This document shows positions 8,627 to 23,869 of a stretch of 34,617 nt of DNA, in pieces. The notes beneath the pieces were generated by a model. It did not search any database and had not been told where the DNA came from. It saw nothing but the letters and a program-made list of their open reading frames with translations. The stretch's first letter is position 1. Each line of letters starts with the position of its first letter. The stretch is from assembly GCA_002292025.1 (NCBI GenBank), contig DBBC01000108.1, forward strand, positions 1 to 34,617, read 5' to 3'. A program made the translations under genes and the position numbers. This DNA comes from Firmicutes bacterium UBA994. GTDB lineage: Bacteria > Bacillota > UBA994.

Positions 8627-8639
8627 TAATGTGTCAATC

Positions 8640-10916: not shown

Positions 10917-11704
10917 TGTTCGCCCTGAGTATAGAAAACGTGTCTTTTCGTTTTGTTCGGCCTGTACTTAGCGGGGTCTTTGCAGATTTTGCGCCGGGCA
11001 CTTTTTCCGGTATCCTAGGCGCGAACGGCGTTGGCAAATCGACACTTATTAAAATTATCGGTCGTTGGCTGCCTATGCAGGAGGGTTCTATCCGCGTCTA
11101 TAATCGCCCTCTCGGCACATTCTCACAGCGCGACTTAGCCCGCCATATCGCTGTCGTTCCGCAGGAGCAGACCTATGTCACGGATCTAACTGTGCGCGAA
11201 ATGGTAGAGCTTGGTCGTATCCCTCATCAAGGTCTGCTTGCCCACCTGACTACGGCTGATCAAAGCGCGATAAACCATGCGCTCGTGCAGACAGGGCTGC
11301 AGGAAATAGCAGAGCGGAGCTTCTCCACGCTTAGCGGCGGGGAACGGCAACGCGTGCGCGTGGCTACGGCACTAGCCCAAGCAGCCGACATTTTAATCCT
11401 CGACGAGCCTACGACTCACCTGGACATCAGATACCAAGTAGAATTACTGACGCTGCTTGCTCAGCTGGTAACTAAAGGATACACGGTGATAACTGTGCTC
11501 CATGACATTAACCTAGCGGCACTCTTTTGCGATCACCTAGTGCTGCTCGCTGACGGGCGCGTACTGCGTTCCGGTCCACCCGCTGAGGTCATAACGCGGG
11601 AAGCTATCTTGAAAGCCTACCAGTGTGACGTTACCGTGCTTTCGCACCCGACGCAGGGTGTCCCCCAGATTTCGCTGACGCGCCAGCAGTTGCCCCATAT
11701 GTAA
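10913..11704 (+). CDS. ABC transporter ATP-binding protein (BtuD/FepC-like)
   Basis: Walker A GANGVGKST, signature LSGGERQR, Walker B ILILDEP. The ATG at 10913 overlaps the permease stop (ATGA). The track ORF from 10769 is an overlapping upstream extension. Confidence 0.88.
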   Translation: MMFALSIENVSFRFVRPVLSGVFADFAPGTFSGILGANGVGKSTLIKIIGRWLPMQEGSIRVYNRPLGTFSQRDLARHIAVVPQEQTYVTDLTVREMVELGRIPHQGLLAHLTTADQSAINHALVQTGLQEIAERSFSTLSGGERQRVRVATALAQAADILILDEPTTHLDIRYQVELLTLLAQLVTKGYTVITVLHDINLAALFCDHLVLLADGRVLRSGPPAEVITREAILKAYQCDVTVLSHPTQGVPQISLTRQQLPHM

Positions 11705-11716: not shown

Positions 11717-12940
11717 GTGATGTGCGTGATTGATGTCCTAGTTGTAGGTGGTGGGGCGGCCGGATTATCTGCCGCCATTGCTGCCGCCCGCGCCGGCGCA
11801 ATGGTACTTGTCTTAGAAAAACGGGATCGCCTCGGCAAAAAGATTCTCGCTAGCGGCAACGGACGCTGCAATCTCAGCAATCTCTGTCTCTCTCCGTCGC
11901 ACTTCATCAGCCACGACCCTGCGCTTCTCGCGCCCATACTAGAGAGGTTCTCTGTCCGTCACACATACGCTTACTGGAGAGAACTAGGGCTCGAGCTCAT
12001 TGCCGAGGACGGTCGACTCTATCCCCGCACAATGCAGGCCAAAAGCGTCTTAGAAGTGCTCTCACACGAGCTGACCCGACTTAAAGTCCAAGTCAGCTTA
12101 AACAGTCCCGTTACAGCCATAGACGCGCTAAGTTCGGGGCAAGGCCTAGAAGTAAGGACCCACGGGGGGCTCTCGTTCCGGGCGCGCGCAGTGGTCCTAG
12201 CCACCGGGGGCAAAGCGGCCCCGCAATTAGGGTGCAGCGGAGATGGGCACATGTTGGCAGCCATGATCGGACATTCGGTTATCCCTCCAGCCCCGGCACT
12301 TGTAGGGCTAAGGCTGGCCAGCCCCTATCTTAAGCTGCTTTCAGGGTTACGCCTGCAGGCGCGCGTATCTATCCCGCCACTGGCAAAGGAAGAAGCAGGA
12401 GAAATCATCTTTACTGACTACGGCATCTCTGGCATACCTGTGTTTGACCTAACCGCGTATATCGGGAACAGAGAGTCATTAACGCTTCACCTTTGTATTG
12501 CGGAACAGGTGAGTCATGCAGAGCTCTATACGTTCCTGCAAGACCGCTTTGAGCGTCTCTCACATAAAACCATGCATGATGCGCTGCAAGGCTATATCCC
12601 CACAAAGTTGATTGTGCCTCTCTTGCGCGAGGCCGAGATACCTCCCGCCCTGCCCGTGCACAAGGCAATGGGCGGCCCTCTGACAAGACTTGCCTCTCTG
12701 TTATGGGACTGGACATTTCCTATTATGGGGCTAAACACTTGGGAACAAGCGCAGACCACTTGGGGCGGCGTGCCGTTATGCGAGGTGAGTGTTCCCTCCC
12801 TGCGCTCAAAAATACACCCCGGCCTAACTTTGGCCGGGGAGGTGCTGGATGTGCATGGTAAATGCGGCGGCTATAATCTTCACTGGGCCTTCGCCAGCGG
12901 TAAGTTGGCCGGAGAAAGCGCGGCCATTGGGGGACCCTAG
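11717..12940 (+). CDS. HI0933/BaiN-family NAD(P)/FAD-dependent oxidoreductase
   Basis: DVLVVGGGAAGLSAAIAAARAG dinucleotide fold followed by KILASGNGRCNLSN, typical of the HI0933 family. The likely true start is GTG 11726 (AGGAG 8 nt upstream). Confidence 0.75.
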   Translation: MMCVIDVLVVGGGAAGLSAAIAAARAGAMVLVLEKRDRLGKKILASGNGRCNLSNLCLSPSHFISHDPALLAPILERFSVRHTYAYWRELGLELIAEDGRLYPRTMQAKSVLEVLSHELTRLKVQVSLNSPVTAIDALSSGQGLEVRTHGGLSFRARAVVLATGGKAAPQLGCSGDGHMLAAMIGHSVIPPAPALVGLRLASPYLKLLSGLRLQARVSIPPLAKEEAGEIIFTDYGISGIPVFDLTAYIGNRESLTLHLCIAEQVSHAELYTFLQDRFERLSHKTMHDALQGYIPTKLIVPLLREAEIPPALPVHKAMGGPLTRLASLLWDWTFPIMGLNTWEQAQTTWGGVPLCEVSVPSLRSKIHPGLTLAGEVLDVHGKCGGYNLHWAFASGKLAGESAAIGGP

Positions 12941-13830
12941 TTTAGCACTAACCGTCCGCCGCTTGGCGCAAGCACTTTGATTCCCTGCGGCACAATGTAA
13001 GCGTCTACAGGTGTACTGCCATACACGGTGCCGTCGAACATCTTAGTCATGCTGCGCGCGGCAGAAATTTTGACAGTCTTGCAGGTAAAAAACTCTACGG
13101 CGGGGTGTCCTACATGAGCGCCTTTGTACACCTTAGGCAGAAGAGCAAGCAGGTCAAGCCGGCTAATCCCGTTGACGAGACACACATGCAGCAGTCCGTC
13201 ATTGAGCTTCGCTTGCGGGGTTACATACATCCCCCCTCCCGTCCAACAAGAGTTCATAATAAACACGGCCGTAGTTTTACGGTGTATTTTTTGGCCGTCA
13301 AACTCAATCTCCATCTCATCGGCTGTGAGCGTATGCATTACCTTTACTACCGCCGCGGCAATAGCTAGCGGACCGCGCAAAAAATCTTTGTATTTATTGA
13401 CATGCGTCATAACCTCCGTCGTAAAGCCCAGCCCCAAAATCACGCCAAAGGCGGCGTCAGTGTCAACGCCAAAATCGACGGTACGCGTGGGAGCGTCAGA
13501 CAACGCGCGAACAGTCGCGCCAATCTGGAGCGGGATGTTCAAACCGCGCGCTAGGTCGTTGCCCGTGCCGGTAGGAATAACCGCCAGCGTCGCCTGCGAC
13601 CCGATTAAGCCGTTGAGCACCTCATGGGCGGTACCATCGCCCCCCATGGCACCGACTACTTCAGCCCCGTTTTGCACTAATCCCTTCGCCAGCTCTGTTG
13701 CGTGGCGCGGCGCCTTAGTCATGTGGAGCTGATAAGAAATACTTCTGTCCTGCAACGCTCTTTCCATCAGCGGCAGCGCCTTTTGCGTTCGACCACGACC
13801 GGCGATTGGATTGACAATGATATGCCACAT
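12937..13830 (-). CDS. diacylglycerol/lipid kinase family protein (YegS/DagK/BmrU type)
   Basis: 297 aa. NP.AG N-terminus, GGDGTAHEVLNGL and PTGTGNDLAR motifs. AAGGGAG SD. Confidence 0.8.
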   Translation of the reverse strand: MWHIIVNPIAGRGRTQKALPLMERALQDRSISYQLHMTKAPRHATELAKGLVQNGAEVVGAMGGDGTAHEVLNGLIGSQATLAVIPTGTGNDLARGLNIPLQIGATVRALSDAPTRTVDFGVDTDAAFGVILGLGFTTEVMTHVNKYKDFLRGPLAIAAAVVKVMHTLTADEMEIEFDGQKIHRKTTAVFIMNSCWTGGGMYVTPQAKLNDGLLHVCLVNGISRLDLLALLPKVYKGAHVGHPAVEFFTCKTVKISAARSMTKMFDGTVYGSTPVDAYIVPQGIKVLAPSGGRLVLN

Positions 13831-13853: not shown

Positions 13854-14204
13854 CTACTCTGGCACGACGCGGATGACTACGCGGTTAGGCAGGCAGACGA
13901 TAACTTCGCCGGGACGCACCTTTTTCCCCATGCCGATACATACTTTGTCCGGGCAGTAAGCCTCTACCACGCGAATCGCCCCATCCTTCACCTCAACCAA
14001 GAGGTCTCCCCGCGTTCCGCGTACTGTAAAGCGTCGCACTTCCTCGCCGGGGCGCAGTGGGACACTTTTCACGTATAGATTATTCACCTCGATAATCGCC
14101 ACCCCACCCGGAACCACAACCAAGCGGCGGTAAGCGATCATCGCACCTGCTAGCAGTGCCACAGCAACCGCAAACAGAATAATCTTCTTGTCTAGAGCGG
14201 TCAT
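13854..14204 (-). CDS. NusG domain II (PF07009-like) membrane-anchored protein
   Basis: One N-terminal TM (IILFAVAVALLAGAMIAY), then a beta-rich domain ending CPDKVCIGMG...PGEVIVCLPNRVVI, typical of NusG_II proteins. Start placed at ATG 14204 (AGGAGA SD). The track start at 14324 overlaps the upstream gene. Confidence 0.65.
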   Translation of the reverse strand: MTALDKKIILFAVAVALLAGAMIAYRRLVVVPGGVAIIEVNNLYVKSVPLRPGEEVRRFTVRGTRGDLLVEVKDGAIRVVEAYCPDKVCIGMGKKVRPGEVIVCLPNRVVIRVVPE

Positions 14205-14221
14205 GGAGGCTCTCTTATCTC

Positions 14222-16327
14222 CTATTGCCATATTCTGCTTCCCACGGTGTAGAGAACGAGCAGTACCATAAGCATCACGGCTGCCACCACCAGCGACCCC
14301 AGCGTAACGTTTTGCGGATTCCACATCTCCGGTCGTTGTCCCGCTGCACCGTTGTCGCCCGCCGCTTCATTACGTATTCTGCGCGTTATATCTTCTGCCG
14401 CTTGACCGACGCTGTCGTATGCCTGCCCAAGCCCCTGTTCCAGCCCGCGGGCCTGTTCAACTACTAAGCTCGTTGTGCGCTGAGCTGTCTCGTAACCCTC
14501 ACCCAGCATATCGTCGAACTTCTTAACTCTCCTAAACACGCTATGGGATACACTGCCGCCACGGTCATATAGGTCGCATAGACCGCCCTCCACACGCGTG
14601 ACGTAGTTGCAGCAAAATCTGAGAAATCCTTGGGTCACAGGACGATACAGGAGCGCCTCGACAGAAAGCCAGCAGGGTACCGGTCCTGTGCCAAACCTAT
14701 AACGGCGCGCCGCCAAGAACACCACCACCCCTAAGGCAACAGGGATAACTCCCGCGATGTAGGAACTCGCTGTCCATAATTTGACTGCGCCCAGCTGCTC
14801 TGCCATCATGCCAAAATCTACTGCCGTGGCTGTGGCGCTCCTAGCCATCATGTTAATCACACGCTCGGGGAACAGTCCGATGGCTACGATACCTCCGGCA
14901 AACGCGGCAAGCACTGCCGGTATGATAGACCCCTCTTTTGCCGCGGAAAAACCTCGTCCGCGATAGCTGCCCAAAAATACCCCGTAATAGAGCTTAATCA
15001 GGTAGGTGACAGTGAGAACGGAACCCAGCATAAACAACGGCCCCACCCAAGCTAGTACCGGTTCGCCGTGATAAGCCGCAGCCTTGTCTATGCCGTACTG
15101 AATGAGTTTCTTGCTGCCAAATCCGCTTAAACCTGGTACTCCTATTACGGACAGAGTGGCAACTAAAGTGGCTAGCGCTGTCAGAGGCAATACCTTGGCC
15201 ATGCCTCCTAACTTACTAAGTTCCAGCGACCCGGTTCTGAGATAGACAGACCCCATCATTATAAACAGCCCCGCCTTGAGCACGGCGTGGTTAAAGGCAT
15301 GAAACACGGCGGCAGTATACGGTAGTCCGCCCTTAGCGCCCAAATATGCGGCGCAACCTACCGCCAGCATCACATAGCCCATCTGGCTGATACTCGAATA
15401 AGCCAAGAGACGCTTTACATTATTTTGCAGCAAAGCCATCACTGCTCCGCCGAGGATGGTCAGTAAGGCCACCCAGATAAGCGCAAAGCCAATATTAATA
15501 GGCAGCGCCGACACCTCTTGGCTAGGCAGCGATGAGGACAGCGTGACAGCAAGCACGCTCAGTATGCCGTAAAAACCCGTCTTCCCCATCACCCCCGCGA
15601 GCAATGCAGTGGCGGGAGCGGGGGCTACCGGATAGGCGTGCGGTATCCAGACGTGCAATGGAATCAAACCAGCCTTCACACCAAACCCAATGAGAAAGAT
15701 GATGGCAATCAAATACGGATTGACCGCTCCCCCCTGCAGTCTGTCCAACACCGGCACAATGTCCGCGGTGCCGGCCGACCACACCAACAGGAGGATGCCA
15801 AACAACAGCACCAGCCCACCGGTCACTCCCATATAGAGATAACTGTCACCTGCCCGCATGGCCTCGTCATCTTCATCGTGAATGACGAGGGGATAGGCCG
15901 CAAAGGTCATAATCTCAAAAAACAGGAAAAGCGTAAAGTAGTCACCGGCCAGAAAAACACCCAAGCAACCGCTGAGGCTAACCAAGAGGAAGCTCGAAAA
16001 ACGCGTCTGAGAATGGCTGCTACGCATATAGCTCATGGCATAAAGGCTGACTAACGCCCCAATCCCGGCCGAAATCAGCGCAAACAGTGCACCCAAATGC
16101 GTAGGGCGAAAACTCAGGCCGAAATCTACAAGGTGAATGAAAATCAGCTCTAGTCTGTGTCCGGGGTTTACGTGATACACCGCCGCCACTGCGCCCAGTG
16201 TCAAAAACGCCGTGCTGACCACCACGACCTCCTGTAAGCGCCGATGCGCACGCAACAAGAAGACCAGCGCCGCACCACAGAGCGGCAAGAGAATTGGCAC
16301 TAGCAACAACAGGTCTAACGAAAGCAC
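14222..16327 (-). CDS. Mrp/complex-I antiporter-like subunit (NuoL/MrpA/MrpD family) with ~220-aa C-terminal extension
   Basis: 701 aa. Conserved channel motifs FFEIMTFAAY, GVKAGLIPLHVWIPHAYPVAPAPATALLAGVMGKTG and HAFNHAVLKAGLF. The C-terminus has extra TMs, a long charged helix and a terminal TM. Confidence 0.85.
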   Translation of the reverse strand: MLSLDLLLLVPILLPLCGAALVFLLRAHRRLQEVVVVSTAFLTLGAVAAVYHVNPGHRLELIFIHLVDFGLSFRPTHLGALFALISAGIGALVSLYAMSYMRSSHSQTRFSSFLLVSLSGCLGVFLAGDYFTLFLFFEIMTFAAYPLVIHDEDDEAMRAGDSYLYMGVTGGLVLLFGILLLVWSAGTADIVPVLDRLQGGAVNPYLIAIIFLIGFGVKAGLIPLHVWIPHAYPVAPAPATALLAGVMGKTGFYGILSVLAVTLSSSLPSQEVSALPINIGFALIWVALLTILGGAVMALLQNNVKRLLAYSSISQMGYVMLAVGCAAYLGAKGGLPYTAAVFHAFNHAVLKAGLFIMMGSVYLRTGSLELSKLGGMAKVLPLTALATLVATLSVIGVPGLSGFGSKKLIQYGIDKAAAYHGEPVLAWVGPLFMLGSVLTVTYLIKLYYGVFLGSYRGRGFSAAKEGSIIPAVLAAFAGGIVAIGLFPERVINMMARSATATAVDFGMMAEQLGAVKLWTASSYIAGVIPVALGVVVFLAARRYRFGTGPVPCWLSVEALLYRPVTQGFLRFCCNYVTRVEGGLCDLYDRGGSVSHSVFRRVKKFDDMLGEGYETAQRTTSLVVEQARGLEQGLGQAYDSVGQAAEDITRRIRNEAAGDNGAAGQRPEMWNPQNVTLGSLVVAAVMLMVLLVLYTVGSRIWQ

Positions 16328-16343
16328 AGGTATGGCCGCCTCC

Positions 16344-17828
16344 CTATCTCGCCGTTGTAAAGAGGGAGTAGGTGGCCCTCTCTGCCAGCTCTAGCGCGAA
16401 GTTGTAAGGCAACAAGTCAATAAGCAAAATCACAGCGGCCAGCGCAACCATAGGGGCCAGCATAGCTAAAGGAAGGTTGTCCCTCCGGGTTTTTGCTTGT
16501 GCGGCGTGCGCTACGCCTTCACCAAAAAAGGCATTTTGTATCAGCGGGAAGTAGTAAATAAAGTTCATCAGCGAGCTGAGAAGTAGCAGCAAGACATATG
16601 CTACGCTGCCGGCATCAAGTGCCCCCAGCGCCAATTCCCATTTGGAAACAAACCCGACCAGCGGAGGGACACCCACCATCGACAGAGCCGCCACAGTGAA
16701 TACAGACATGGTGATGGGCATTTTTCTACCTAACCCTACCCACTCCGATACCCGTCGCTTGCCGGTACTGTAGATAATCGCTCCTGCGGCTAAGAACAAG
16801 CTGGATTTCATAAAGGCATGAGCAAAAATGTGGAAGATGGCTCCGATCAAGGCGCGCTCAGTAAGTAACCCGACGCCCAGCAAAATATACCCCATTTGTC
16901 CCACGCTTGAGTAGGCTAACCTGCGTTTGATGTCGTCTTGCGTGATGGCAACTGCCGACCCTAGGAATATAGTTATGGCGGCAAGCAATTGTAACTGGTC
17001 CCTCCACATGACGATCTGCATCATCTCTAGACCAAATATCTGGTAAGTGACACGTATTAACCCAAATGCCCCCGTTTTCAACATCAGACCGGAGAGCAGC
17101 GCGCTTGCCGGGCTAGGGGCGACAGGATGTGCCTCCGGCAGCCAGATATGCAAAGGAACCATGCCGGCTTTGATGCCAAAGCCAACGAGAAAGCCAAGAA
17201 ACGCTAGAAATGTCAAAGCGGTAATTTCTAGCGGGAGCCCTCCGGGAGTGAACGACACGCGCCCGGCTTGTTGAAACACGGCGATAACCGAGAATAGCAG
17301 CGACAGCCCCCCGATGATTGTAAGAATAAGGTATCTGTAGCCGGCTCGCATGGCGACCGCAGTTTCTTCGTGTATGATCAGGACATATGCTGAAAGCGAC
17401 ATCACCTCAAAGAATAAGAAAAAAGTGATCAAGTCGCCGCTCAGGATCACACCCATAGCCCCCGCTAGGGTAAGAACTGAGAATGGGTAGTATCTATTCT
17501 TAGCATGCTCCTTGACCATATAGGCGGTGCTATAAATTGTCACCAACAGCCATACAAAGGAAACCACTGTCGCTACAAAGAACCCTAGGTAGTCCAAGCG
17601 GAAAGAAACTCCTAGCGGCGGCAAGAGTTGCGGGAAATTAGCCACAATCGTAGTATCGGCCATAATGGTGCGATAGTGCTGCACTACTAGCAAGAATGAA
17701 GCTAGGGCTGCCATCACAGAAAGGCTATTGCGTAAACGCCATGAGCGACGTTCCACAGCGTAGATAACAGCGGCAAGTAAGAGCGGCACCATGACGGGCA
17801 AAATCACTGCGACAGACGTAGTTTGCAT
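16344..17828 (-). CDS. Mrp antiporter-like subunit D (NuoM/N family)
   Basis: 494 aa. FFEVMSLSAY, GIKAGMVPLHIWLPEAHPVAPSPASALLSGLMLKTG, HIFAHAFMKSSLF. Confidence 0.85.
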   Translation of the reverse strand: MQTTSVAVILPVMVPLLLAAVIYAVERRSWRLRNSLSVMAALASFLLVVQHYRTIMADTTIVANFPQLLPPLGVSFRLDYLGFFVATVVSFVWLLVTIYSTAYMVKEHAKNRYYPFSVLTLAGAMGVILSGDLITFFLFFEVMSLSAYVLIIHEETAVAMRAGYRYLILTIIGGLSLLFSVIAVFQQAGRVSFTPGGLPLEITALTFLAFLGFLVGFGIKAGMVPLHIWLPEAHPVAPSPASALLSGLMLKTGAFGLIRVTYQIFGLEMMQIVMWRDQLQLLAAITIFLGSAVAITQDDIKRRLAYSSVGQMGYILLGVGLLTERALIGAIFHIFAHAFMKSSLFLAAGAIIYSTGKRRVSEWVGLGRKMPITMSVFTVAALSMVGVPPLVGFVSKWELALGALDAGSVAYVLLLLLSSLMNFIYYFPLIQNAFFGEGVAHAAQAKTRRDNLPLAMLAPMVALAAVILLIDLLPYNFALELAERATYSLFTTAR

Positions 17829-17843
17829 AATAAGGCCTCCAGT

Positions 17844-19310
17844 TTATCTCACGAAAAGAAGCGCGGTTTGTTGTACAAGCGGTACCATAAGCGAAGGAAA
17901 CAACCCAAAGAAGAACACCATCAAAGCAAGAACTAGGATGGGCGCAAGCATCGCCAAACGTGGCTCTACGGCTTCCTTCTCGCTGTCTTTACCAAAGAAG
18001 GCAGAGATGATGATGGGAAAGTAGTAGGCCGCGTTGAGCAGGCTGCTGACCAGAATAAGCACCGCAAAGACAAGCATATCGGCATCAAGTGCCCCTAGCG
18101 CGATGTATAACTTAGAGATAAAGCCCGCCGTCCCGGGAATACCTACCATAGACATAGCGCCGACAGTAAACGCCGCGAAAGTGAGCGGCATCTTGCGCCC
18201 GAGACCATTAAACTGCGACAGCTTCTTGATACCGGTCTGGTGGATAATTACGCCTGCGGCTAAGAACAACAAAGACTTCATTACGGCATGATTTAGAATA
18301 TGAAGAACTCCGCCTTCGATGGCGCGCGGGCTGAATAGGCCGAACCCCAAGAAGATATAACCCACCTGCGTGACTGTGGAAAACGCCAGCAAACGCTTGG
18401 CATTGTCTTGTACCATGGCAAAGACTGAGCCAACCATCAGCGCTCCTGTCGACAGTGCCAAGAAGAGATGCCGTATCGGTAAGAGCGCAAAGATCTCCAG
18501 CCCCAACGCTAGGTACGCGATTCTCATCAGGGCAATAATATAAACCTTAACAACTAGGCCGCTGAGGAGCGCGCTGGAAGCTGTCGGGGCATTAGAGTGC
18601 GCGTCCGGCAGCCACACGTGCATAGGGAAAAGCGCTGCCTTAACGCCAAAGCCTACAACCATTAAGCCTATCGATGTCAAGAGGTTTAAGGGATACTGCT
18701 CTGCGGTCACGATAAGTGTTGTGCGAATATATTCCATGTTAAGGTGTCCGGTGATCATAAATATTAGGGCTATACTGAACAGAACTCCACCTGAACCTAA
18801 CGCGCTCAGGACAAGGTAGCGAAAGCTCGCTTCCACGCTTTCTTTCGTACCTTTGATGGCAATGATGGCGATGGCGGCCAGCGAGCTAATCTCGATAAAC
18901 ACAAAAAGATTAAACAAGTCCCCGGCCATTACCATGCCTTGCATCGCGGCCGTTAACAGCAAGATAAGTGTAAAGTAGACGCCGTTATGCCTCACTTCGC
19001 GCGGACCGTAGACCGCAAACCAGGAGATAATCAAAGCGACCATAGCCAACACTAGCGAGGAGTAGGCCGCGAAAACGTCAACCAACACCACTATACCATA
19101 CGGAGCCGCCCACCCGCCTACAGGATAGTGAAGTGTGCCTTCCGCTAACACGCGCATTGTCATGCTAAGAGACATGATAAAAGCCGCCGCTCCTGCACCT
19201 AGGAAAACCGCGTTGACCACTCCCTGGCGTTTGCCCAGAAGCGGAATAATAAAAGCAGCTAAGAGCAACACCACTACTATAAGAACGGGCGCATGTCCAA
19301 GATTAAGCAT
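17844..19310 (-). CDS. Mrp antiporter-like subunit D (NuoM/N family)
   Basis: 488 aa. FIEISSLAAI, GVKAALFPMHVWLPDAHSNAPTASSALLSGLVVK, HILNHAVMKSLLF. Confidence 0.85.
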   Translation of the reverse strand: MLNLGHAPVLIVVVLLLAAFIIPLLGKRQGVVNAVFLGAGAAAFIMSLSMTMRVLAEGTLHYPVGGWAAPYGIVVLVDVFAAYSSLVLAMVALIISWFAVYGPREVRHNGVYFTLILLLTAAMQGMVMAGDLFNLFVFIEISSLAAIAIIAIKGTKESVEASFRYLVLSALGSGGVLFSIALIFMITGHLNMEYIRTTLIVTAEQYPLNLLTSIGLMVVGFGVKAALFPMHVWLPDAHSNAPTASSALLSGLVVKVYIIALMRIAYLALGLEIFALLPIRHLFLALSTGALMVGSVFAMVQDNAKRLLAFSTVTQVGYIFLGFGLFSPRAIEGGVLHILNHAVMKSLLFLAAGVIIHQTGIKKLSQFNGLGRKMPLTFAAFTVGAMSMVGIPGTAGFISKLYIALGALDADMLVFAVLILVSSLLNAAYYFPIIISAFFGKDSEKEAVEPRLAMLAPILVLALMVFFFGLFPSLMVPLVQQTALLFVR

Positions 19311-19674
19311 GTCGTTTACTCCTCAAGGCGATGATCTTATCCGCGTCAAGCGTGCCGTACTGCTTGTGCAAGAGCACGACCAGTGCCAAGGCAAACGCGG
19401 TGAAGCTTACAGAGATAACTATGCCTGTCAGGATAAGCGCGGAGGGAACAGGGTTGACGTATTGCATGACACCCTCCCTGAGGATAGGCGCCTGGCCGCC
19501 GTGTATATACCCAATGGCGACGAAGAACAAGAACAGGGACGTATCCATAATGTTCATGCCCATTATCTTCTTGAGCAGATTGTTGTGCGTAAGCATGGTA
19601 TGAAAGCCAATAATAAAAAGAATTACTGCAACTAAATAATATATGTTCATGTACAGGCGCTCAATGATGACCAT
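19303..19674 (-). CDS. Mrp subunit C (MnhC/NuoK-like)
   Basis: 123 aa, 3 TM. NPVPSALILTGIVISVSFTAFALAL motif. Overlaps both neighbours. Confidence 0.8.
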   Translation of the reverse strand: MVIIERLYMNIYYLVAVILFIIGFHTMLTHNNLLKKIMGMNIMDTSLFLFFVAIGYIHGGQAPILREGVMQYVNPVPSALILTGIVISVSFTAFALALVVLLHKQYGTLDADKIIALRSKRHA

Positions 19675-20116
19675 CCGGTTCCGCGCCTCCTTCCAATAGC
19701 TCTTGGAACAGCTTAAGCACGGTGCCCGCCACCTTAGCGCCTATGCCTAGCGTCACCAGCAGAATCATGCCGCTACTCCACAATCGCCCAGGCTCTCCAG
19801 TCGGAAACACACCCTGATTCGTGAGGAAATGCCGTCCGAAGACAATGCCTACTAAACCTGCCATCACATATACCAGCACACCGCCAACCTCCAGCCAGAG
19901 GGACGTTTCGTGCTTAAGGCGGTGTTTCTGTGCGGTAAACCTATATACGAGGCTGTACAAGATAAAGCTTGCGCCGATAATCGTCCCACCGGAAAAGCCC
20001 CCACCAGGGGACAAGTGGCCGTGAAAGAGAATATAGGCCCCAAAGAGCTGCGTCGCGGGGATAAGAATGCGGCTAAGCATCTCAAGAATCATGTCATTCA
20101 TGTTCATAGCCTCCAT
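19661..20116 (-). CDS. Mrp subunit B (MnhB domain)
   Basis: LFHGHLSPGGGFSGGTI motif characteristic of MnhB. The start is ambiguous (several ATGs at 20092-20116). Confidence 0.8.
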   Translation of the reverse strand: MEAMNMNDMILEMLSRILIPATQLFGAYILFHGHLSPGGGFSGGTIIGASFILYSLVYRFTAQKHRLKHETSLWLEVGGVLVYVMAGLVGIVFGRHFLTNQGVFPTGEPGRLWSSGMILLVTLGIGAKVAGTVLKLFQELLEGGAEPDGHH

Positions 20117-20375
20117 AGAACGCCGCCGTCACAGCAATGACGGCTACAAACAACACCGTGGCCTCACCTAAGGTGTCATAAGCGCGGTAGTCGATGATAA
20201 TTGCGGCAATGGTGTTAATGGCCCCGGTGTCACGAGCGCTATCCCGCAAATACTTTTGCATGACCCCTTGGTGCGCCGGAGCTGTCACATCCCCATACAA
20301 GGGCATCTCTGCGACCATTAACACCAAGAGCACTCCAATCCCAAGTAGCACCATAAGCGTCAATGTTTTCCTCAT
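20094..20375 (-). CDS. small MnhB-related membrane protein (MbhE-like; corresponds to part of MrpA C-terminus)
   Basis: 93 aa. IIIDYRAYDTLGEATVLF motif (the DYRG.DTLGE signature of the MnhB-related family). Confidence 0.65.
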   Translation of the reverse strand: MRKTLTLMVLLGIGVLLVLMVAEMPLYGDVTAPAHQGVMQKYLRDSARDTGAINTIAAIIIDYRAYDTLGEATVLFVAVIAVTAAFYGGYEHE

Positions 20376-20614
20376 TCTTCATGCCTTCCCGTGCGGCTGA
20401 TGGCGGCAAGAAACAAGAGCGAGGTAGCTCCGGCACCAATAGCGGCCTCGGTAATGGCCACGTCGGGGGAGTGTAGCTGTTGCCAGATGATAGACATGAC
20501 CATGCTATAGGCGCCGAAAATAACAGTCGCACTGAGTAAATCCTTGGTGCGAGCTACGACTACAGCACAAACCACCAAAAACAATAACAAGAGGACATTA
20601 ATTGCCGCTAGCAT
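20372..20614 (-). CDS. DUF4040-type membrane protein (MbhD-like; MrpA C-terminal domain homologue)
   Basis: 80 aa, 3 TM. SATVIFGAYSMVMSIIWQQLHSPDVAITEAAIGAG resembles DUF4040. Confidence 0.6.
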   Translation of the reverse strand: MLAAINVLLLLFLVVCAVVVARTKDLLSATVIFGAYSMVMSIIWQQLHSPDVAITEAAIGAGATSLLFLAAISRTGRHEE

Positions 20615-20906
20615 GTTTGTGACCCTCTCGCGTACGATAGACGGCTCTGGCCATATAATGAGCAGCGGCGGGCGTGGTAACCCATAAAAAGATAATCAAT
20701 AAGATGACCTTGAGCACAAGGTACATACTTCCACCCTCGAAAAAGGTCAAGCCTACTAGGACCAACCCCGCGCCTAAGGTGTCGCACTTGGTCGTGGCGT
20801 GCATGCGGGTGAGCGCGTCTGGGAAGCGCAATAAGCCAACGGTACCCGCGGTAAAGAAGAATATCCCCCCCACTAGGAACGCAGTGCCGATTACAGAGGC
20901 CAGCAT
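20598..20906 (-). CDS. Mrp subunit G (MnhG)
   Basis: GTVGLLRFPDALTRMHATTKCDTLGAGL is the MnhG/PhaG signature. Confidence 0.85.
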   Translation of the reverse strand: MLASVIGTAFLVGGIFFFTAGTVGLLRFPDALTRMHATTKCDTLGAGLVLVGLTFFEGGSMYLVLKVILLIIFLWVTTPAAAHYMARAVYRTREGHKHASGN

Positions 20907-20919
20907 CTATACATCCCCC

Positions 20920-21189
20920 TCATACCATTGTTCCTCTCTCAATATAGCGCGCCACGCCAATGGTCAATAAAAAGCTAATGAGTGAGTACACCATCGCCAC
21001 ATCTAAGTAGTACGGGACCTCCTGAAAGATGTAGCCGATCAGCATCAGCACGACTACAGTCTTTGTGCCGATAACGTTAATGGCCACTACCCTGTCCGCT
21101 GGCGTGGGCCCCACTATCGCCCGGTACAAAGACGCAAACGTCAAGAGCATCAACCACAAACATGTAACTAAGAGCGCCGTCAGTTCCAT
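20920..21189 (-). CDS. Mrp subunit F (MnhF)
   Basis: 89 aa, 3 TM. LYRAIVGPTPADRVVAINVIGTK motif. Confidence 0.75.
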   Translation of the reverse strand: MELTALLVTCLWLMLLTFASLYRAIVGPTPADRVVAINVIGTKTVVVLMLIGYIFQEVPYYLDVAMVYSLISFLLTIGVARYIERGTMV

Positions 21190-21701
21190 TAGTGTCGCCT
21201 CTCAATCTCTACTAACAGGTTCTCGATATGCCAATCCCTAAGTCCTGCCGCGGCACCATCCATAAGCGCATGCACGATAAACTCTCCTTGCACCGGCGCC
21301 TCTACTGAGATAGTGCCGGGCGTCAGCGTAATGCTGTTAGCTAAAAAGACGCGCATCATCGGCTCTTTAAGCTTACTCTCGTGCGCAACGAACTGCGGGT
21401 TTAAGGCTATGCGGCGGGCAAATGCCAGCTCAGCCACCTGTACCGAAGCCTTAAACACGTCAATGATTAAGTATCCGGCATACGTCAGCCACGCGGAGAG
21501 GTTGCCGCGGTTGATATGCAAGTCATTGGCAAAGCTGAGTAACAAGTCACGATTGACATAGGTCACTAAAGCGGCCACTAACCAGCCCGTAATCAGCGAC
21601 TGGATGTCAGCGCTTTGTGCGAACAGCATCCAGAGCACGAACAAGGCCAGAGTCCAACCAATCAGGCGCATATAACGGGACATCGCTTTCTCCCCCCACA
21701 A
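21189..21701 (-). CDS. Mrp subunit E (MnhE)
   Basis: 170 aa. Two N-terminal TMs and the ITLTPGTISVE...IVHAL motif. The real start is possibly ATG 21683 (GGGGAGAAAGCG upstream). Confidence 0.75.
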   Translation of the reverse strand: MWGEKAMSRYMRLIGWTLALFVLWMLFAQSADIQSLITGWLVAALVTYVNRDLLLSFANDLHINRGNLSAWLTYAGYLIIDVFKASVQVAELAFARRIALNPQFVAHESKLKEPMMRVFLANSITLTPGTISVEAPVQGEFIVHALMDGAAAGLRDWHIENLLVEIERRH

Positions 21702-21764
21702 AGATAAGAGCTACCACCAGCATGACGGCAGCCCCTATTAATCACTCTGTTCTCGCACAAAGCC

Positions 21765-22610
21765 TCACTTGCTTGGCGCCTTCTCCAAGGCATCGATCAC
21801 CGCTTGCACAAAGCCTTCACTGGAACCGGTGGCGCCCGATACTACATCAACTTCAGGGTCCTGTTCTGCTATTACCGCCTGCGCCAGAGCCGCAAAGGCC
21901 GCATTCGCGTATTCCGGCGTGTCTTGGTGGGCCACGACCCGCACGCTCTCCACTCGGCCCCCCCTGACGGTGACTGATACGCGAATAGGGCCTAGTAACC
22001 CGACCCCTTGACCTAGATACTCGCCATCCGGAATCGAGGCGAGGTCACGCGTAAATCGGTCTACAGGAATAGGGGCCGCTTCGCCCAGTACATGCTGCTG
22101 AAATAAGGCCAATGCCTCCCTGACCCCGGCCGTAACACCGCGCGTTGAAAGCGTTGCATTAGTGATCACGTCCACATCCACGCCCACAACGAGCTGGTCG
22201 CGAGCGGTTTTACCCGTAAACTGCCGCAAAAACGCGGGTGCTTCCACCTTGTCGCCAATGCCCGGTGTCTCGCGGTGTGCGGTTATGCGTATGCCTGCCG
22301 CCGCACCCGACGCATCCACCGCGACCAACAAGCTAATCGGGCCGGCATAGCCGCTGCCTGCACTTTGCATTATCGCCCCGATAAGCTTACCGTCCCTAGT
22401 GGCGAGAAAGTAGGTGACATCATCACGTATGGTTTCCTCGAACTTGTCCGCCGCAGGCAAAAGCTCACCCAACGCGCGCTGCAATTCTGCTTGTTTTCTC
22501 TCCGAGATCACTTCGCTGGTAACGGAGTAGGTCGCGGCTAACGCCGCCCCCGCTATGGAGCAGATGAGCGCGAGCGTCACGCTAAGCCTGAATACATCTT
22601 TCACGTACAA
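21765..22610 (-). CDS. membrane-anchored protein with two FMN-binding (FMN_bind) domains; N-terminal half RnfG/NqrC-like
   Basis: N-terminal TM (LSVTLALICSIAGAALAA). RnfG-like core SGYAGPISLLVAVD...ITAHRETPGIGDKV. Flavinylation-type motifs DVITNATLS (22152-22163 = TNAT) and DVVSGATGSS (21828-21839 = SGAT). TTG 22610 or GTG 22604 start. Confidence 0.75.
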   Translation of the reverse strand: MYVKDVFRLSVTLALICSIAGAALAATYSVTSEVISERKQAELQRALGELLPAADKFEETIRDDVTYFLATRDGKLIGAIMQSAGSGYAGPISLLVAVDASGAAAGIRITAHRETPGIGDKVEAPAFLRQFTGKTARDQLVVGVDVDVITNATLSTRGVTAGVREALALFQQHVLGEAAPIPVDRFTRDLASIPDGEYLGQGVGLLGPIRVSVTVRGGRVESVRVVAHQDTPEYANAAFAALAQAVIAEQDPEVDVVSGATGSSEGFVQAVIDALEKAPSK

Positions 22611-22646
22611 TCCCTGCCTCGGTGATAGATTATTATTTCCTCGCTT

Positions 22647-22674
22647 ATTCTAGCACATAGCAGTCCCTTAACAA
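22647..22674 (-). promoter_or_regulatory. candidate promoter of the FMN-binding/Mrp operon (-35 TTGTTA, 16 nt, extended -10 TGCTAGAAT)
   Basis: Minus-strand read: TTGTTA (22669-22674) and TAGAAT (22647-22652), preceded by TGC. Lies ~40 nt upstream of the first gene. Confidence 0.5.
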
Positions 22675-22784: not shown

Positions 22785-23459
22785 TCAAATGCTGCGAAAA
22801 ATAAGGTATAGCCCTACCCCAACAAACAATAGCCCGGCGACATATGCGCCAAAGTCCCAGTACCTGCTGAAGCCGCGCCAAGCTCGCAGCGCCCCTACCG
22901 CACCGCCCATAAGCAGCAAAGGCAGCCCCTGCCCTAAGCCAAAAGCAAACAACAGCAGTCCCCCTGCGTAAACTTGCCTAGAGGTCGCCGCGACACTGAC
23001 TATAATGCCAAGCACCGGACTCACGCAGGGCGAGGCCGCCAGCCCAAATGCCAGCCCCACCAAAAAGGCCCCAAGGAAACCGTGTGCTCGCACGGGCATC
23101 TTAGTTATGCTCTTAAAGGGCAGTTGTACCAACTGCATTAAGCTAAGTCCCATCAGCAGCAACACTGCCCCGAGCAGCATGGGGGCTACACTAGAAGTGA
23201 TGCCGATTATGCCGCCTAGAAGTGCCGCCGCCAGCCCCAGCGCAGTAAACGCTGTAGAAAGCCCAAGTACTAGGCTCAGCACTAGCAGTAAGCTGCGCCG
23301 CGTTTTAATGCCGCCACTGACGCCCACATACCCTAAAACTATAGGCATCATGGCGATAATGCAAGGGGATAGACTGGTCAGCACACCGGCGCCAAATGAA
23401 GCCAGCACTGCGAGGCCAAGGTTTCCGACCAGTATGCTCTGTAGCGTTTCCATCGTCAT
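22785..23459 (-). CDS. ccdA: cytochrome c biogenesis / thiol-disulfide electron transporter CcdA (DsbD-core family)
   Basis: 224 aa, 6 TM. The two conserved membrane Cys motifs LSPCIIAMMP and ASPCVSPVLG. The ATG overlaps the upstream stop (ATGA). Confidence 0.85.
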   Translation of the reverse strand: MTMETLQSILVGNLGLAVLASFGAGVLTSLSPCIIAMMPIVLGYVGVSGGIKTRRSLLLVLSLVLGLSTAFTALGLAAALLGGIIGITSSVAPMLLGAVLLLMGLSLMQLVQLPFKSITKMPVRAHGFLGAFLVGLAFGLAASPCVSPVLGIIVSVAATSRQVYAGGLLLFAFGLGQGLPLLLMGGAVGALRAWRGFSRYWDFGAYVAGLLFVGVGLYLIFRSI

Positions 23460-23869
23460 CGTGGATTTATCCCCGCAGCAATAAACCGCCGCAGTTCCTC
23501 CTTAGACATGGCCCCCACCTCATGCCGCTCACGCCCATTGGCAGTGACCACAACAAAATGGGGGATAGACCGAAGATTAAAGCGACGCCCAAGTTCTGTG
23601 GCTTGGTCTGACTTAATGTCCGCGACAATAAAGGTGACTTGTGTGCCGAACTCGGCCTTAAGCTCCCGCACCGCGGGATATATTACTACGCAGGAGCGTC
23701 ACGTATCGGAGGTGAACATGACAAAGACCGGGCTCTGCTGTGCCCGAGCTTGCTCAAAAGCTGTGAGCGGCGCGAGAGACTTAAGGTCATCTCCACCGCT
23801 CGGTCTGGCAAGGACCCAAGCCACAACACCCACGAGCAAGATTAGTAGTAGAGATACGCTACGCTTCAT
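23456..23869 (-). CDS. signal-anchored thioredoxin-fold protein with in-frame TGA (23699-23701) at the first active-site position (U-R-S-C); predicted selenoprotein (alternative: nonsense pseudogene)
   Basis: ATG 23869 has GGAGG 8 nt upstream. Translation: MKRSVSLLLILLVGVVAWVLA...SPVFVMFTSDT-TGA-RSCVVIYPAVRELKAEFGTQVTFIVADIKSD...IPHFVVV. This is one frame, 138 codons. The track shows only the C-terminal 71 aa. Confidence 0.65.
23662..23698 (-). promoter_or_regulatory. candidate bacterial SECIS hairpin immediately 3' of the UGA
   Basis: mRNA GCUCCUGC (23697-23690) can pair with GCGGGAGC (23669-23662): 8 bp, 1 G-U. A mutually exclusive apical hairpin CCCGC-GGU-GCGGG lies at 23677-23665, with a GGU loop ~27-29 nt after the UGA. 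Confidence 0.45.

What the first reader, a model, noticed from the sequence alone, without database searches (positions are those of the whole stretch)
13854..22674. Operon: two-domain FMN-binding protein + Mbh-ordered Mrp module with three antiporter-like subunits + NusG_II protein, with no catalytic redox module
Twelve co-directional genes run from a plausible promoter (22647-22674). Gaps are 13-63 nt or the genes overlap (E/F, G/DUF4040, DUF4040/MbhE-like, MbhE-like/B, B/C, C/D). The genes encode: (i) an extracytoplasmic RnfG/NqrC-like protein with two FMN_bind domains carrying flavinylation-type motifs; (ii) MnhE, F, G, DUF4040, an MnhB-related protein, MnhB and MnhC; (iii) three NuoL/M/N-type subunits that all retain the charged channel residues (FFE..., G.KAG, K in TM8, H..H..K in TM12); and (iv) a single-TM NusG-domain-II protein. 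From memory, NusG_II proteins often occur in Firmicutes next to FMN-binding / ApbE / Gx-transporter genes. Known Mrp-containing respiratory machines (Mbh, Mbx, Fpo, complex I) couple the antiporter arm to a NuoB/D/H-type module, and none of those subunits is present here. Classical Mrp antiporters have no flavoprotein partner. The genetic linkage of a flavinylatable periplasmic-side redox protein with an Mrp arm suggests two possibilities. One is a new type of redox-linked or redox-regulated ion translocator. The other is an Mrp antiporter with an unrecognised accessory subunit pair. The Sec-thioredoxin/CcdA pair immediately upstream makes the whole 13.8-23.9 kb stretch an extracytoplasmic redox plus ion-transport island.
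Basis: partly seen in the sequence, partly recalled or inferred. Interest (0 to 1): 0.78.

Follow-up and report, generated by a model that had tools for sequence, protein, structure and literature searches.

The report
Mrp antiporter operon with RnfG-type neighbour
A sodium/proton antiporter (Mrp) operon from a bacterium of hyperalkaline springs is bracketed by a flavin-carrying RnfG-type protein and a small NusG_II protein, and comparison with relatives traces this layout to the Rnf–Mrp–flavin-attachment gene neighbourhood of anaerobic alkaliphiles rather than to a new redox-driven ion pump.

Summary
Twelve co-directional minus-strand genes encode a two-FMN_bind protein, ten Mrp subunits in Mbh order with three antiporter-like subunits, and a NusG_II protein. 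No NuoB/D/H-type module or ApbE lies in the window.

The flavoprotein is an RnfG: it passes NCBIfam TIGR01947, its best fold match is A. woodii RnfG, and it aligns full-length with the two-domain RnfG inside the Dethiobacter rnfCDGEAB operon.

The nearest Mrp relatives are in Dethiobacter, Natranaerobius and Anaerobranca. There the same Mrp sits between rnfCDGEAB and apbE(-NusG_II)-Gx, as separately terminated units. The window's lineage (Bacillota_D class UBA994/SRB2, serpentinite springs) keeps only rnfG–mrp–NusG_II.

This block is intact in all 8 other sequence versions found. It is absent from 80 other Mrp loci, and one close relative lacks the flavoprotein gene. A conserved terminator-like hairpin separates the flavoprotein gene from mnhE, whereas NusG_II starts 17 nt after the last Mrp gene.

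Most likely this is an ordinary secondary antiporter co-located with Rnf/flavinylation genes. An accessory or regulatory role for the two flanking proteins is not excluded. I could not establish whether these genomes carry the rest of Rnf elsewhere.

The parts
22647..22674 (-). Sigma-70-like promoter candidate (TTGTTA-16-TAGAAT with TG) upstream of the flavoprotein gene
   Evidence: It is a 9/12 consensus match only, and such sites are only modestly enriched over shuffles.
21765..22604 (-). RnfG-type membrane-anchored flavoprotein of 279 aa: N-terminal TM helix, an RnfG-like FMN_bind domain (motif ITNAT) and a second FMN_bind domain (motif VSGAT)
   Evidence: Pfam FMN_bind x2. NCBIfam TIGR01947 rnfG scores 120.8 bits against a cut-off of 102. 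The best PDB sequence match is RnfG 7ZC6_G at 3e-20, and domain 2 matches 8P2B. The AF2 model (pLDDT 82) best matches A. woodii RnfG 9ERI_G with TM 0.74. It is 38% identical over its full length to the Dethiobacter RnfG. dN/dS is 0.06-0.09.
21704..21738 (-). Conserved RNA hairpin followed by a T-rich tract (terminator- or attenuator-like), about 20 nt before the mnhE start
   Evidence: RNAfold, alignment A5 and consensus fold. There are 15 pairs, 4 of them invariant G.U, so the hairpin is stable only on the sense strand. It has no Rfam match and the scan tool did not flag it.
21189..21683 (-). mrpE/mnhE
   Evidence: Pfam MNHE 5.7e-29. The start was set by alignment with homologues.
20920..21189 (-). 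mrpF/mnhF
   Evidence: Pfam MrpF_PhaF
20598..20906 (-). mrpG/mnhG
   Evidence: Pfam PhaG_MnhG_YufB
20372..20614 (-). MbhD-like subunit (DUF4040), equivalent to part of the MrpA C-terminal domain
   Evidence: Pfam MbhD; NCBIfam
20094..20375 (-). MbhE-like subunit, equivalent to part of the MrpA C-terminal domain
   Evidence: Pfam MbhE. NCBIfam hits fall on residues ~690-790 of MrpA models.
19661..20116 (-). mrpB/mnhB
   Evidence: Pfam MnhB
19303..19674 (-). mrpC/mnhC (NuoK-like)
   Evidence: Pfam Oxidored_q2
17844..19310 (-). Antiporter-like subunit 1 (MrpD/MbhH-like, 488 aa)
   Evidence: Pfam Proton_antipo_M. The best PDB matches are MbhH 6CFW_H and MbsH 6U8Y_H.
16344..17828 (-). Antiporter-like subunit 2 (MrpD-like, 494 aa)
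   Evidence: Pfam; PDB
14222..16327 (-). Antiporter-like subunit 3 (MrpA-N/NuoL/MbsH'-like, 701 aa), with a long C-terminal amphipathic region and a terminal TM helix
   Evidence: Pfam. The best PDB match is 6U8Y_X.
13854..14204 (-). Single-TM NusG_II (DUF1312) protein of 116 aa with invariant Cys84 and Cys104; it starts 17 nt after the stop of the preceding Mrp gene
   Evidence: Pfam NusG_II. PDB homologues Lin0431, EF3258 and RUMGNA_02503. AF2 pLDDT 88. Alignment A9. dN/dS 0.12-0.18.

Best explanation
The ten central genes encode a conventional secondary Mrp (CPA3) cation/proton antiporter of the anaerobe type. MrpA is split into a NuoL-like subunit plus MbhD- and MbhE-like pieces, the genes run in the order E-F-G-first, and there are three proton-channel subunits. 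The antiporter uses the membrane potential to take up H+ in exchange for Na+ (or K+). This keeps the cytoplasm below the external pH of 11-12 in a serpentinite-spring bacterium of Bacillota_D class UBA994 ('SRB2').

The two flanking genes do not belong to the antiporter mechanism. They come from the extracytoplasmic flavin electron-transfer system. The 279-aa protein is an RnfG subunit with an extra FMN domain. The NusG_II protein is the small companion that in other Bacillota sits with apbE and the Gx transporter next to rnf.

The arrangement is a reduced form of the rnfCDGEAB | mrp | apbE-NusG_II-Gx neighbourhood of anaerobic alkaliphiles. There the primary Na+ pump (Rnf) and the Na+/H+ exchanger (Mrp) are kept together, presumably for coordinated running of the Na+ cycle.

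Shown: the identities, synteny, purifying selection and outgroup layouts. Inferred: the antiport function and ion specificity, that three proton-channel subunits raise the H+/Na+ ratio, that the RnfG-type protein works with an Rnf core or another electron-transfer partner encoded elsewhere, and that co-location serves co-regulation.
For: The Mrp subunit set is complete and no redox module is present. The same E-F-G-MbhD-MbhE-B-C-D-D-(D/A) layout, without any flavoprotein, is common among 80 metagenomic Mrp loci.

The flavoprotein is an RnfG by three tests:
- curated model above cut-off;
- PDB sequence and fold matches;
- full-length alignment to RnfG inside the Dethiobacter rnfCDGEAB operon.

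Multi-FMN RnfGs are already described (PMC8238504).

The nearest Mrp outgroups all place this Mrp between rnfB and apbE:
- Dethiobacter alkaliphilus;
- Natranaerobius thermophilus;
- Anaerobranca gottschalkii, where apbE-NusG_II-Gx follows;
- one metagenomic contig with rnfA-rnfB-mnhE;
- Natranaerofaba, noted in the literature (PMC8359318).

Without Mrp the order is rnfCDGEAB-NusG_II-Gx, and elsewhere apbE-NusG_II-Gx.

In the outgroups strong terminators separate rnf, mrp and apbE. The window has a conserved terminator-like hairpin after its rnfG-type gene.

Divergence of the flavoprotein from outgroup RnfG (36-38% identity) matches that of MrpE (32-35%), the 701-aa subunit (32-35%) and NusG_II (35%). 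This is consistent with common descent of the whole neighbourhood.

Locus L020 has an MrpD 62% identical to the window's but purK directly upstream of mnhE and no flavoprotein gene.
Against: Within the UBA994 clade the rnfG-mrp-NusG_II block is never interrupted, although both flanks are rearranged.

NusG_II is fused into the Mrp transcription unit with a 17-nt gap, and overlaps the Mrp gene in L003. In the outgroups a terminator follows the last Mrp gene.

No recognisable promoter lies between the hairpin and mnhE. Mrp transcription therefore probably passes through the flavoprotein gene.

No other rnf gene or apbE lies within 10 kb in any clade locus. Even so, the flavoprotein and NusG_II genes are under strong purifying selection.

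Leaving rnfG alone next to mrp needs two separate deletions or a specific translocation, which hints at selection for that adjacency.

I could not establish whether the genome holds rnfCDEAB or apbE elsewhere.
Confidence: 0.52

Rival explanations
1. Accessory-subunit model. In the UBA994 lineage an RnfG copy and the NusG_II protein were recruited as extracytoplasmic accessory subunits of Mrp. They could act as a redox sensor or gate that tunes antiport to the extremely reducing, H2-rich surroundings, or as assembly or stabilising factors at high pH.
For: - The block is intact in all 8 other sequence versions while the flanks change.
- NusG_II is tightly coupled to the last Mrp gene.
- There is no separate mrp promoter after the hairpin.
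- Selection is purifying.
- Both proteins are single-TM-anchored, as small accessory subunits often are.
- No rnf core genes lie nearby.
Against: - L020 has this Mrp type without the flavoprotein gene.
- 0 of 80 other Mrp loci have such neighbours.
- The number of FMN domains varies between 2 and 3 within the clade. That fits an electron conduit better than a fixed structural subunit.
- A terminator-like hairpin uncouples the expression levels.
- Solved Mrp, MBH and MBS structures offer no known docking site or redox-sensitive element (established knowledge, not tested here).
Confidence: 0.22
2. Redox-driven translocator. Electron transfer through the two covalent flavins on the outer face drives, or is driven by, ion movement through the Mrp arm. 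This would be a new respiratory machine lacking a NuoB/D/H module.
For: There is only the genetic linkage and the precedent that Mrp modules are coupled to redox modules in MBH, MBS and complex I. The antiporter-like subunits are closest to MbhH and MbsH.
Against: - No transmembrane electron path, quinone site or cytoplasmic donor module is encoded.
- In all known Mrp-type machines coupling runs through NuoH/NuoB/NuoD-like subunits on the cytoplasmic side, and these are absent.
- Outgroups show that the flavoprotein's native partner is Rnf.
- The terminator-like hairpin.
Confidence: 0.04
3. Thiol-flavin module. The flavoprotein (and the Cys-bearing NusG_II protein) works with the upstream selenocysteine thioredoxin and CcdA as an extracytoplasmic reductant-delivery system, and Mrp is merely a neighbour.
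For: - Sec-Trx and CcdA lie upstream of the block in every clade locus that extends far enough.
- NusG_II has two invariant cysteines.
- DsbD-linked flavinylation systems exist (PMC8238504).
Against: - A glycosyltransferase gene, and in some relatives a small ORF, separates CcdA from the flavoprotein gene in most relatives.
- The flavoprotein gene has its own promoter-like site, and a weak terminator follows ccdA.
- The described DsbD systems use DUF3570, DUF4266 and ApbE, none of which is here.
- Outgroup Rnf-Mrp clusters have no CcdA.
Confidence: 0.07

Closest known systems
Rnf-Mrp-ApbE(-NusG_II)-Gx gene neighbourhood of anaerobic alkaliphilic Bacillota (Anaerobranca gottschalkii, Dethiobacter alkaliphilus, Natranaerobius thermophilus; noted for Natranaerofaba carboxydovora in PMC8359318)
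   Same: The Mrp gene order and subunit set are the same, with MrpD 44-48% identical. An RnfG with extra FMN domain(s) lies upstream. A flavinylation-associated gene (apbE and/or NusG_II) lies right after the long antiporter-like subunit.
   Different: The window keeps only rnfG of the six rnf genes and has no apbE, Gx transporter or moaC. NusG_II is fused into the Mrp unit instead of lying behind a terminator. The flanking genes are unrelated, with no maf-radC-mreB.
Anaerobe-type ('group 3'-like) Mrp/CPA3 antiporters, e.g. N. thermophilus mrp with 'three mrpB genes' (PMC5703873) and Unc8 'MrpEFGBBBCD, MrpDD' (PMC6305446)
   Same: MrpA is split, the order is E-F-G-first, MbhD+MbhE+MnhB were previously read as three MrpB copies, and there are several MrpD-like subunits. 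The layout is common in metagenomes.
   Different: None in the antiporter genes themselves. The difference is only the two flanking genes.
MBH / MBS respiratory complexes of Pyrococcus furiosus (PDB 6CFW, 6U8Y)
   Same: The gene order mbhA-H corresponds to E, F, G, MbhD, MbhE, B, C, D. The antiporter-like subunits are the best PDB matches.
   Different: There are no MbhI-N / NuoB,C,D,H,I-like subunits and no hydrogenase or sulfane reductase module.
Multi-flavinylated RnfG subunits (Meheust et al. 2021, PMC8238504)
   Same: An RnfG core is followed by additional ApbE-type FMN_bind domain(s). The clade has 2 or 3 domains, and Anaerobranca RnfG is larger, at 463 aa against 279.
   Different: The gene is not inside an rnf operon, and the domain-1 motif in this window is TNAT rather than SGAT.
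DUF1312 / NusG_II stand-alone proteins (Lin0431 3LD7, EF3258 4OBI, RUMGNA_02503 4ESN)
   Same: The fold matches (TM 0.8-0.86) and so does the family. These proteins are usually beside apbE, rnf or the Gx transporter.
   Different: Here the gene is the last gene of an Mrp operon, with no apbE or Gx gene nearby. The function of the family is unknown.

Membership tests
Mrp (CPA3) multisubunit cation/proton antiporter | All seven subunit functions present (MrpA N- and C-terminal parts, B, C, D, E, F, G) in one co-directional cluster | tested here: met
   Pfam hits above curated cut-offs for MNHE, MrpF, MnhG, MbhD, MbhE, MnhB, Oxidored_q2 and 3x Proton_antipo_M. NCBIfam maps MbhD/MbhE onto the MrpA C-terminal region.
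Mrp (CPA3) multisubunit cation/proton antiporter | Conserved charged channel residues in the antiporter-like subunits (TM5 Glu, TM7 Lys, TM8 Lys/His, TM12 Lys) | tested here: met
   Read directly in the three translations: FFE/FIE, G.KA(G/A), (M/V)(G/L/V)K, H..H..K, G(F)xSK. The 701-aa subunit was also aligned to 6U8Y_X.
Mrp (CPA3) multisubunit cation/proton antiporter | Na+(K+)/H+ antiport activity | not testable with these tools
   Needs vesicle assays, e.g. in E. coli KNabc.
MBH/MBS/complex-I-type redox-coupled machines | NuoB/NuoD/NuoH/NuoI-like coupling and catalytic subunits encoded with the Mrp module | tested here: not met
   None in the window or within 10 kb in relatives.
RnfG (Rnf complex subunit G) | Sequence model and fold of RnfG | tested here: met
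   TIGR01947 scores 120.8 bits against a cut-off of 102. 7ZC6_G matches at 3e-20. Foldseek gives 9ERI_G at TM 0.74, rmsd 2.3.
RnfG (Rnf complex subunit G) | ApbE flavinylation motif [S/T]GA[S/T] with the acceptor Thr | tested here: inconclusive
   Domain 1 is ITNAT: the Thr is kept but Gly is replaced by Asn. It is SGAT/TGAT in all 11 relatives. Domain 2 is VSGAT and invariant. Actual flavinylation was not tested.
RnfG (Rnf complex subunit G) | Encoded within rnfCDGEAB and assembled with RnfD/E/A | tested here: not met
   No other rnf gene lies in the window or within 10 kb in clade loci. Presence elsewhere in the genome could not be checked.
Flavinylation-associated gene cluster (Meheust et al. 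2021) | ApbE plus a flavinylation substrate plus a transmembrane electron-transfer component in one cluster | tested here: not met
   Only the substrate is present. There is no ApbE, NapH-, MsrQ-, PepSY- or NqrB/RnfD-like gene. CcdA (DsbD_TM) lies upstream, but the described DsbD systems use DUF3570/DUF4266.
NusG_II / DUF1312 | Pfam PF07009 above cut-off and the DUF1312 fold | tested here: met
   82.6 bits against a cut-off of 29.6. 3LD7 matches at TM 0.84-0.86.
Single operon (one transcription unit from 22674 to 13854) | Co-directional genes, short gaps and no internal terminator | tested here: inconclusive
   Gaps are at most 81 nt. A conserved hairpin with a T tract lies between the flavoprotein gene and mnhE. 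No promoter-like site lies after it. No transcript data were available.

The most novel reading that the evidence does not exclude
In the hyperalkaliphilic UBA994/SRB2 lineage an RnfG-derived two-flavin protein and a NusG_II protein have become extracytoplasmic accessory subunits of a three-channel Mrp antiporter. This would make cation/proton exchange responsive to, or partly energised by, the external redox state. It would be the first flavoprotein partner of a stand-alone Mrp and a possible evolutionary bridge between Rnf-type and Mrp-type ion machines.
Probability: 0.15. Interest if true: 0.8.

Novelty: new variant of a known kind. Interest (0 to 1): 0.42.

Why it matters
Mrp antiporters are the main device for pH homeostasis at high pH, and serpentinite springs (pH 11-12) are the extreme case. 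The survey shows that in several anaerobic alkaliphiles the Mrp genes are embedded between the Rnf Na+ pump and the flavin-attachment genes. That association has so far been mentioned only in passing. The serpentinite lineage has reduced it to rnfG-mrp-NusG_II.

If the association is only co-regulation, it still marks Rnf plus Mrp as one functional Na+-cycle unit in these organisms. It also gives a genomic handle on the unknown role of NusG_II/DUF1312 proteins. If the flanking proteins do bind Mrp, that would be a new kind of regulated or redox-linked antiporter.

Tried and rejected
1. The genome-contig scan with a clade-only MrpE alignment returned only 6 loci, all from the same clade. The patterns were too specific to reach outgroups.

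It served only as a background sample of 80 Mrp loci.

3. I tried to learn whether UBA994 genomes carry rnfCDEAB or apbE elsewhere. None of these routes gave an answer:
- the supplements and text of the papers describing these MAGs;
- searches for literature on UBA994/SRB2;
- an exhaustive HMMER search with the flavoprotein followed by cluster look-ups, hoping for a second RnfG with a UBA994 locus tag.

4. The Rfam search of the spacer and leader found nothing.

5. A DsbD-type flavinylation system was considered and rejected, because its defining DUF3570, DUF4266 and ApbE genes are absent.

6. A decaying-relic reading of the two flanking genes was rejected: dN/dS is 0.06-0.18.

7. A sigma-70 promoter inside the spacer was considered. 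The conserved A/T-rich bases pair at the base of the hairpin and lack the invariant -10 T, so I did not accept it.

8. Complex prediction (AlphaFold-Multimer) is not available here.

Full report
OBSERVATION

They are:
- a protein with two FMN_bind stretches;
- MNHE, MrpF and MnhG;
- MbhD (DUF4040) and MbhE;
- MnhB and a NuoK-like MrpC;
- three Proton_antipo_M proteins of 488, 494 and 701 aa;
- a NusG_II protein.

The rest of the window holds housekeeping genes and a cobalamin riboswitch. There is no NuoB/D/H/I, hydrogenase or ApbE gene. The three antiporter-like subunits keep the charged residues of functional proton channels (direct reading of the translations; the 701-aa subunit also aligned).

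Homologues refine three starts: GTG 22604 for the flavoprotein (279 aa), ATG 21683 for mnhE and ATG 14204 for NusG_II (116 aa).

WHAT THE FLAVOPROTEIN IS

It is an RnfG with an added FMN domain. The evidence:
- Residues 9-169 score 120.8 bits on NCBIfam TIGR01947 (rnfG), above the cut-off of 102.
- The best PDB sequence matches are RnfG of C. tetanomorphum, A. woodii and A. vinelandii. NqrC matches far more weakly.
- An AlphaFold model (pLDDT 82) superposes best on A. woodii RnfG, with TM 0.74.
- Residues ~200-276 match single domains of multi-flavinylated proteins (8P2B, TM 0.87).
- The 271-aa RnfG encoded inside rnfCDGEAB of Dethiobacter alkaliphilus aligns with it end to end at 38% identity.
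- An RnfG of 277 aa lying between rnfD and rnfE has the same architecture.

Multi-flavinylated RnfGs are already in the literature (PMC8238504). The acceptor threonines are present in both domains. Domain 1 of this window reads ITNAT where all relatives have SGAT or TGAT.

CONSERVATION WITHIN THE LINEAGE

The flavoprotein family is small, with 19 hits. Eleven loci carry flavoprotein -> ten Mrp genes -> NusG_II without interruption. They represent eight sequence versions besides the window, and their flavoproteins are 48-82% identical to the window's.

The loci come from MAGs of serpentinite-hosted springs (The Cedars, Hakuba Happo, CROMO). GTDB places these MAGs in Firmicutes_D, class UBA994 ('SRB2'), next to class Dethiobacteria.

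The flanks change between loci:
- A glycosyltransferase gene, and in some loci a small ORF, separates CcdA from the flavoprotein gene in most of them.
- A DAGK-like gene or a methyltransferase gene follows NusG_II in some.

The Sec-thioredoxin/CcdA pair is therefore a neighbour, not part of the unit.

dN/dS against three relatives is 0.06-0.09 for the flavoprotein, 0.12-0.18 for NusG_II and 0.02-0.11 for the Mrp genes (dS is near saturation). Both flanking genes are therefore functional.

One locus, L020, has an MrpD 62% identical to the window's but purK directly upstream of mnhE and no flavoprotein gene.

OUTGROUPS

These give the decisive context. After a gap in identity (at least 61% within the clade, at most 50% outside), the nearest MrpD relatives come from anaerobic alkaliphiles.
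- Dethiobacter alkaliphilus: rnfCDGEAB - moaC - the same ten Mrp genes - apbE - Gx transporter - maf - radC - mreB.
- Natranaerobius thermophilus: the same order, with two antiporter-like subunits.
- Anaerobranca gottschalkii: rnfC-D-G(463 aa)-E-A-B - ten Mrp genes - MOSC - apbE - NusG_II - Gx - maf - radC - mreBC.
- A metagenomic contig also has rnfA-rnfB-mnhE.

Where no Mrp is inserted, the order is rnfCDGEAB - NusG_II - Gx - maf - radC - mreBCD. Elsewhere NusG_II follows apbE (and Desulfosporosinus in the supplement of PMC8238504).

Both proteins that bracket the window's Mrp therefore belong, in other Bacillota, to the Rnf/flavinylation gene set, and this Mrp type is habitually lodged inside that set.

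Identity of the window's flavoprotein to outgroup RnfG (36-38%) is in line with MrpE (32-35%), the 701-aa subunit (32-35%) and NusG_II (35%). This fits common descent of the whole neighbourhood.

BACKGROUND SAMPLE

A scan for MrpE in metagenomes returned 80 diverse Mrp loci. The E-F-G-MbhD-MbhE-B-C-D-D-(D/A) layout with two or three antiporter-like subunits is common among them.

tblastn with RnfC/D/G/E/A/B, ApbE, Gx and NusG_II queries found no FMN_bind or NusG_II neighbour in any of the 80 loci. It found one rnfAB-mnhE case.

I also ran Pfam on the nearest upstream ORF of 64 loci and the nearest downstream ORF of 29 loci. Neither family appears among the families listed. The upstream list shows only the first 25 of 118 families, so a single upstream hit cannot be strictly excluded.

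An Mbh-ordered Mrp with three antiporter-like subunits is thus an ordinary stand-alone antiporter type. The flanking pair is specific to UBA994.

TRANSCRIPTION UNITS

In the three cultured outgroups, strong intrinsic terminators follow rnfB. In Anaerobranca and Dethiobacter a strong terminator also follows the last Mrp gene. Rnf, Mrp and ApbE-Gx there are adjacent units, not one operon.

In the window the 81-nt spacer after the flavoprotein gene holds a 15-pair hairpin at 21738-21704, followed by a T-rich tract.
- Its sequence is almost invariant in the 80%-identity group, while the surrounding spacer varies.
- It recurs with a stronger U tract in L014 and in a different sequence in L005.
- It contains four G.U pairs, so it is stable only in the sense RNA.
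- The scan tool missed it and Rfam has no match.

Only about 20 nt, including the ribosome-binding site, separate the hairpin from mnhE, and no promoter-like site follows it. The most economical reading is an attenuator with read-through, which gives more flavoprotein transcript than Mrp transcript. A promoter overlapping the hairpin cannot be excluded.

NusG_II, by contrast, starts 17 nt after the stop of the 701-aa subunit gene and overlaps it in L003. It is part of the Mrp unit.

HOW IT MOST LIKELY WORKS

My best reading, at about 0.5, has three parts.
- The ten Mrp genes form a conventional electrogenic cation/proton antiporter. Three proton channels may raise the H+/Na+ ratio, which would help at pH 11-12. 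This point is inferred.
- The RnfG-type protein is an extracytoplasmic two-flavin electron carrier. Its native partner is an Rnf-type core, or another membrane electron-transfer protein, encoded elsewhere.
- NusG_II is a flavinylation- or Rnf-associated factor of unknown biochemical role. It has an invariant Cys pair and belongs to a fold family of unknown function.

Co-location would reflect descent from, and probably continued co-regulation with, the Rnf Na+ pump.

The main rival, at about 0.2, is that UBA994 recruited the two proteins as accessory or regulatory Mrp subunits. Four observations favour it: the uninterrupted block, the coupling of NusG_II to the operon, the lack of nearby rnf genes and the purifying selection. 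Four weigh against it: L020, the negative background survey, the variable number of FMN domains and the hairpin.

A truly redox-driven pump is unlikely, at about 0.04, because no transmembrane electron path or coupling subunit is encoded.

A functional tie to Sec-Trx/CcdA is also unlikely, at about 0.07.

WHAT COULD NOT BE SETTLED

I could not establish whether UBA994 genomes have rnfCDEAB and apbE elsewhere. The collection scans were exhausted, the papers on these MAGs do not list Rnf for this lineage, and an exhaustive protein search gave no traceable second RnfG. This single check would move the probabilities most.

NOVELTY

The parts are known families, and the Rnf-Mrp locus has been remarked on once in passing. 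The reduced rnfG-mrp-NusG_II form and the breadth of the Rnf | Mrp | ApbE-NusG_II-Gx neighbourhood among anaerobic alkaliphiles appear undescribed. I rate this a new variant of a known kind, of moderate interest.

Noticed in passing
window 21704-21738 (minus strand): A conserved 15-pair hairpin with four G.U pairs and a T-rich tail lies between the flavoprotein gene and mnhE. Its sequence is almost invariant in relatives whose proteins are ~80% identical, while the rest of the spacer varies. It has no Rfam match and could be an attenuator or another regulatory RNA.
   Followed up: partly
window 23456-23869 (minus strand); TGA at 23701-23699: This is a membrane-anchored thioredoxin-like gene with an in-frame TGA. 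The TGA aligns with the first Cys of the CxxC motif of an orthologue (GCRAC in L003). It is conserved as TGA in L010, L005 and L014. A -22 kcal/mol hairpin starts 4 nt downstream. It is a likely selenoprotein (UxxC) encoded just upstream of CcdA.
   Followed up: partly
window 8635-8819 (+), with genes 8986-11704: A cobalamin riboswitch (106 bits) lies upstream of a periplasmic-binding-protein / FecCD / ABC-ATPase transporter set, presumably for B12 uptake.
   Followed up: no
window 12937-13830 (minus strand): A DAGK/YegS-like lipid kinase gene follows NusG_II after 23 nt on the same strand, so the transcription unit may run on beyond 13854. The gene is present only in the ~80%-identity relatives, is split in L001, and is absent or replaced in L003, L005 and L012-L014.
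   Followed up: partly
L015 9560-10000 and 13830-14640 (MAG HKB212): The flavoprotein gene is frameshifted at a poly-G run, and the second antiporter-like gene has an internal deletion of ~700 nt. These could be assembly errors or real decay in that MAG.
   Followed up: partly
L101 4077-5468 (Anaerobranca gottschalkii): This RnfG is 463 aa, much larger than the window's 279-aa protein, and its sequence shows four SGAT/TGAT-type motifs (direct reading). The window protein aligns to it in three separate registers, consistent with repeated FMN domains in an RnfG inside a complete rnf operon.
   Followed up: partly
P0243 and other hits: Many proteins of ~570-800 aa match the whole query at residues ~305-573. 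They are apparently RnfD-RnfG fusions with a two-domain G part. One, annotated RsxD in Dehalococcoidia MAGs, is 45% identical to the window's flavoprotein, which is closer than the Dethiobacter RnfG.
   Followed up: no
window 13854-14204; alignment A9: NusG_II proteins of this group have two invariant cysteines (C84 in CPDK, C104 in CLPN) and a third frequent one. The solved homologue Lin0431 has neither C84 nor the third cysteine. The pair might form a disulfide or a metal site.
   Followed up: partly
L010 (QLUB01000013.1): The record title says 'candidate division NPL-UPA2 bacterium GPS119'. The supplement of PMC9751293 lists bin GPS119 as Firmicutes SRB2 / GTDB UBA994, so the title appears to be mislabelled.
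   Followed up: partly
L021-L100 (background Mrp loci): The nearest upstream neighbours of diverse Mrp operons repeatedly include universal stress proteins (5 of 64) and DabA (4 of 64). Single downstream neighbours include a multihaem cytochrome (L023) and an RseC/MucC-family protein.
   Followed up: no
L018 6041-6544, L019 6024-6503, L101 15125-16042: Molybdenum-cofactor genes (moaC or a MOSC/MoCF gene) are wedged beside the Mrp genes in all three Rnf-Mrp superclusters. I have no explanation for this.
   Followed up: no
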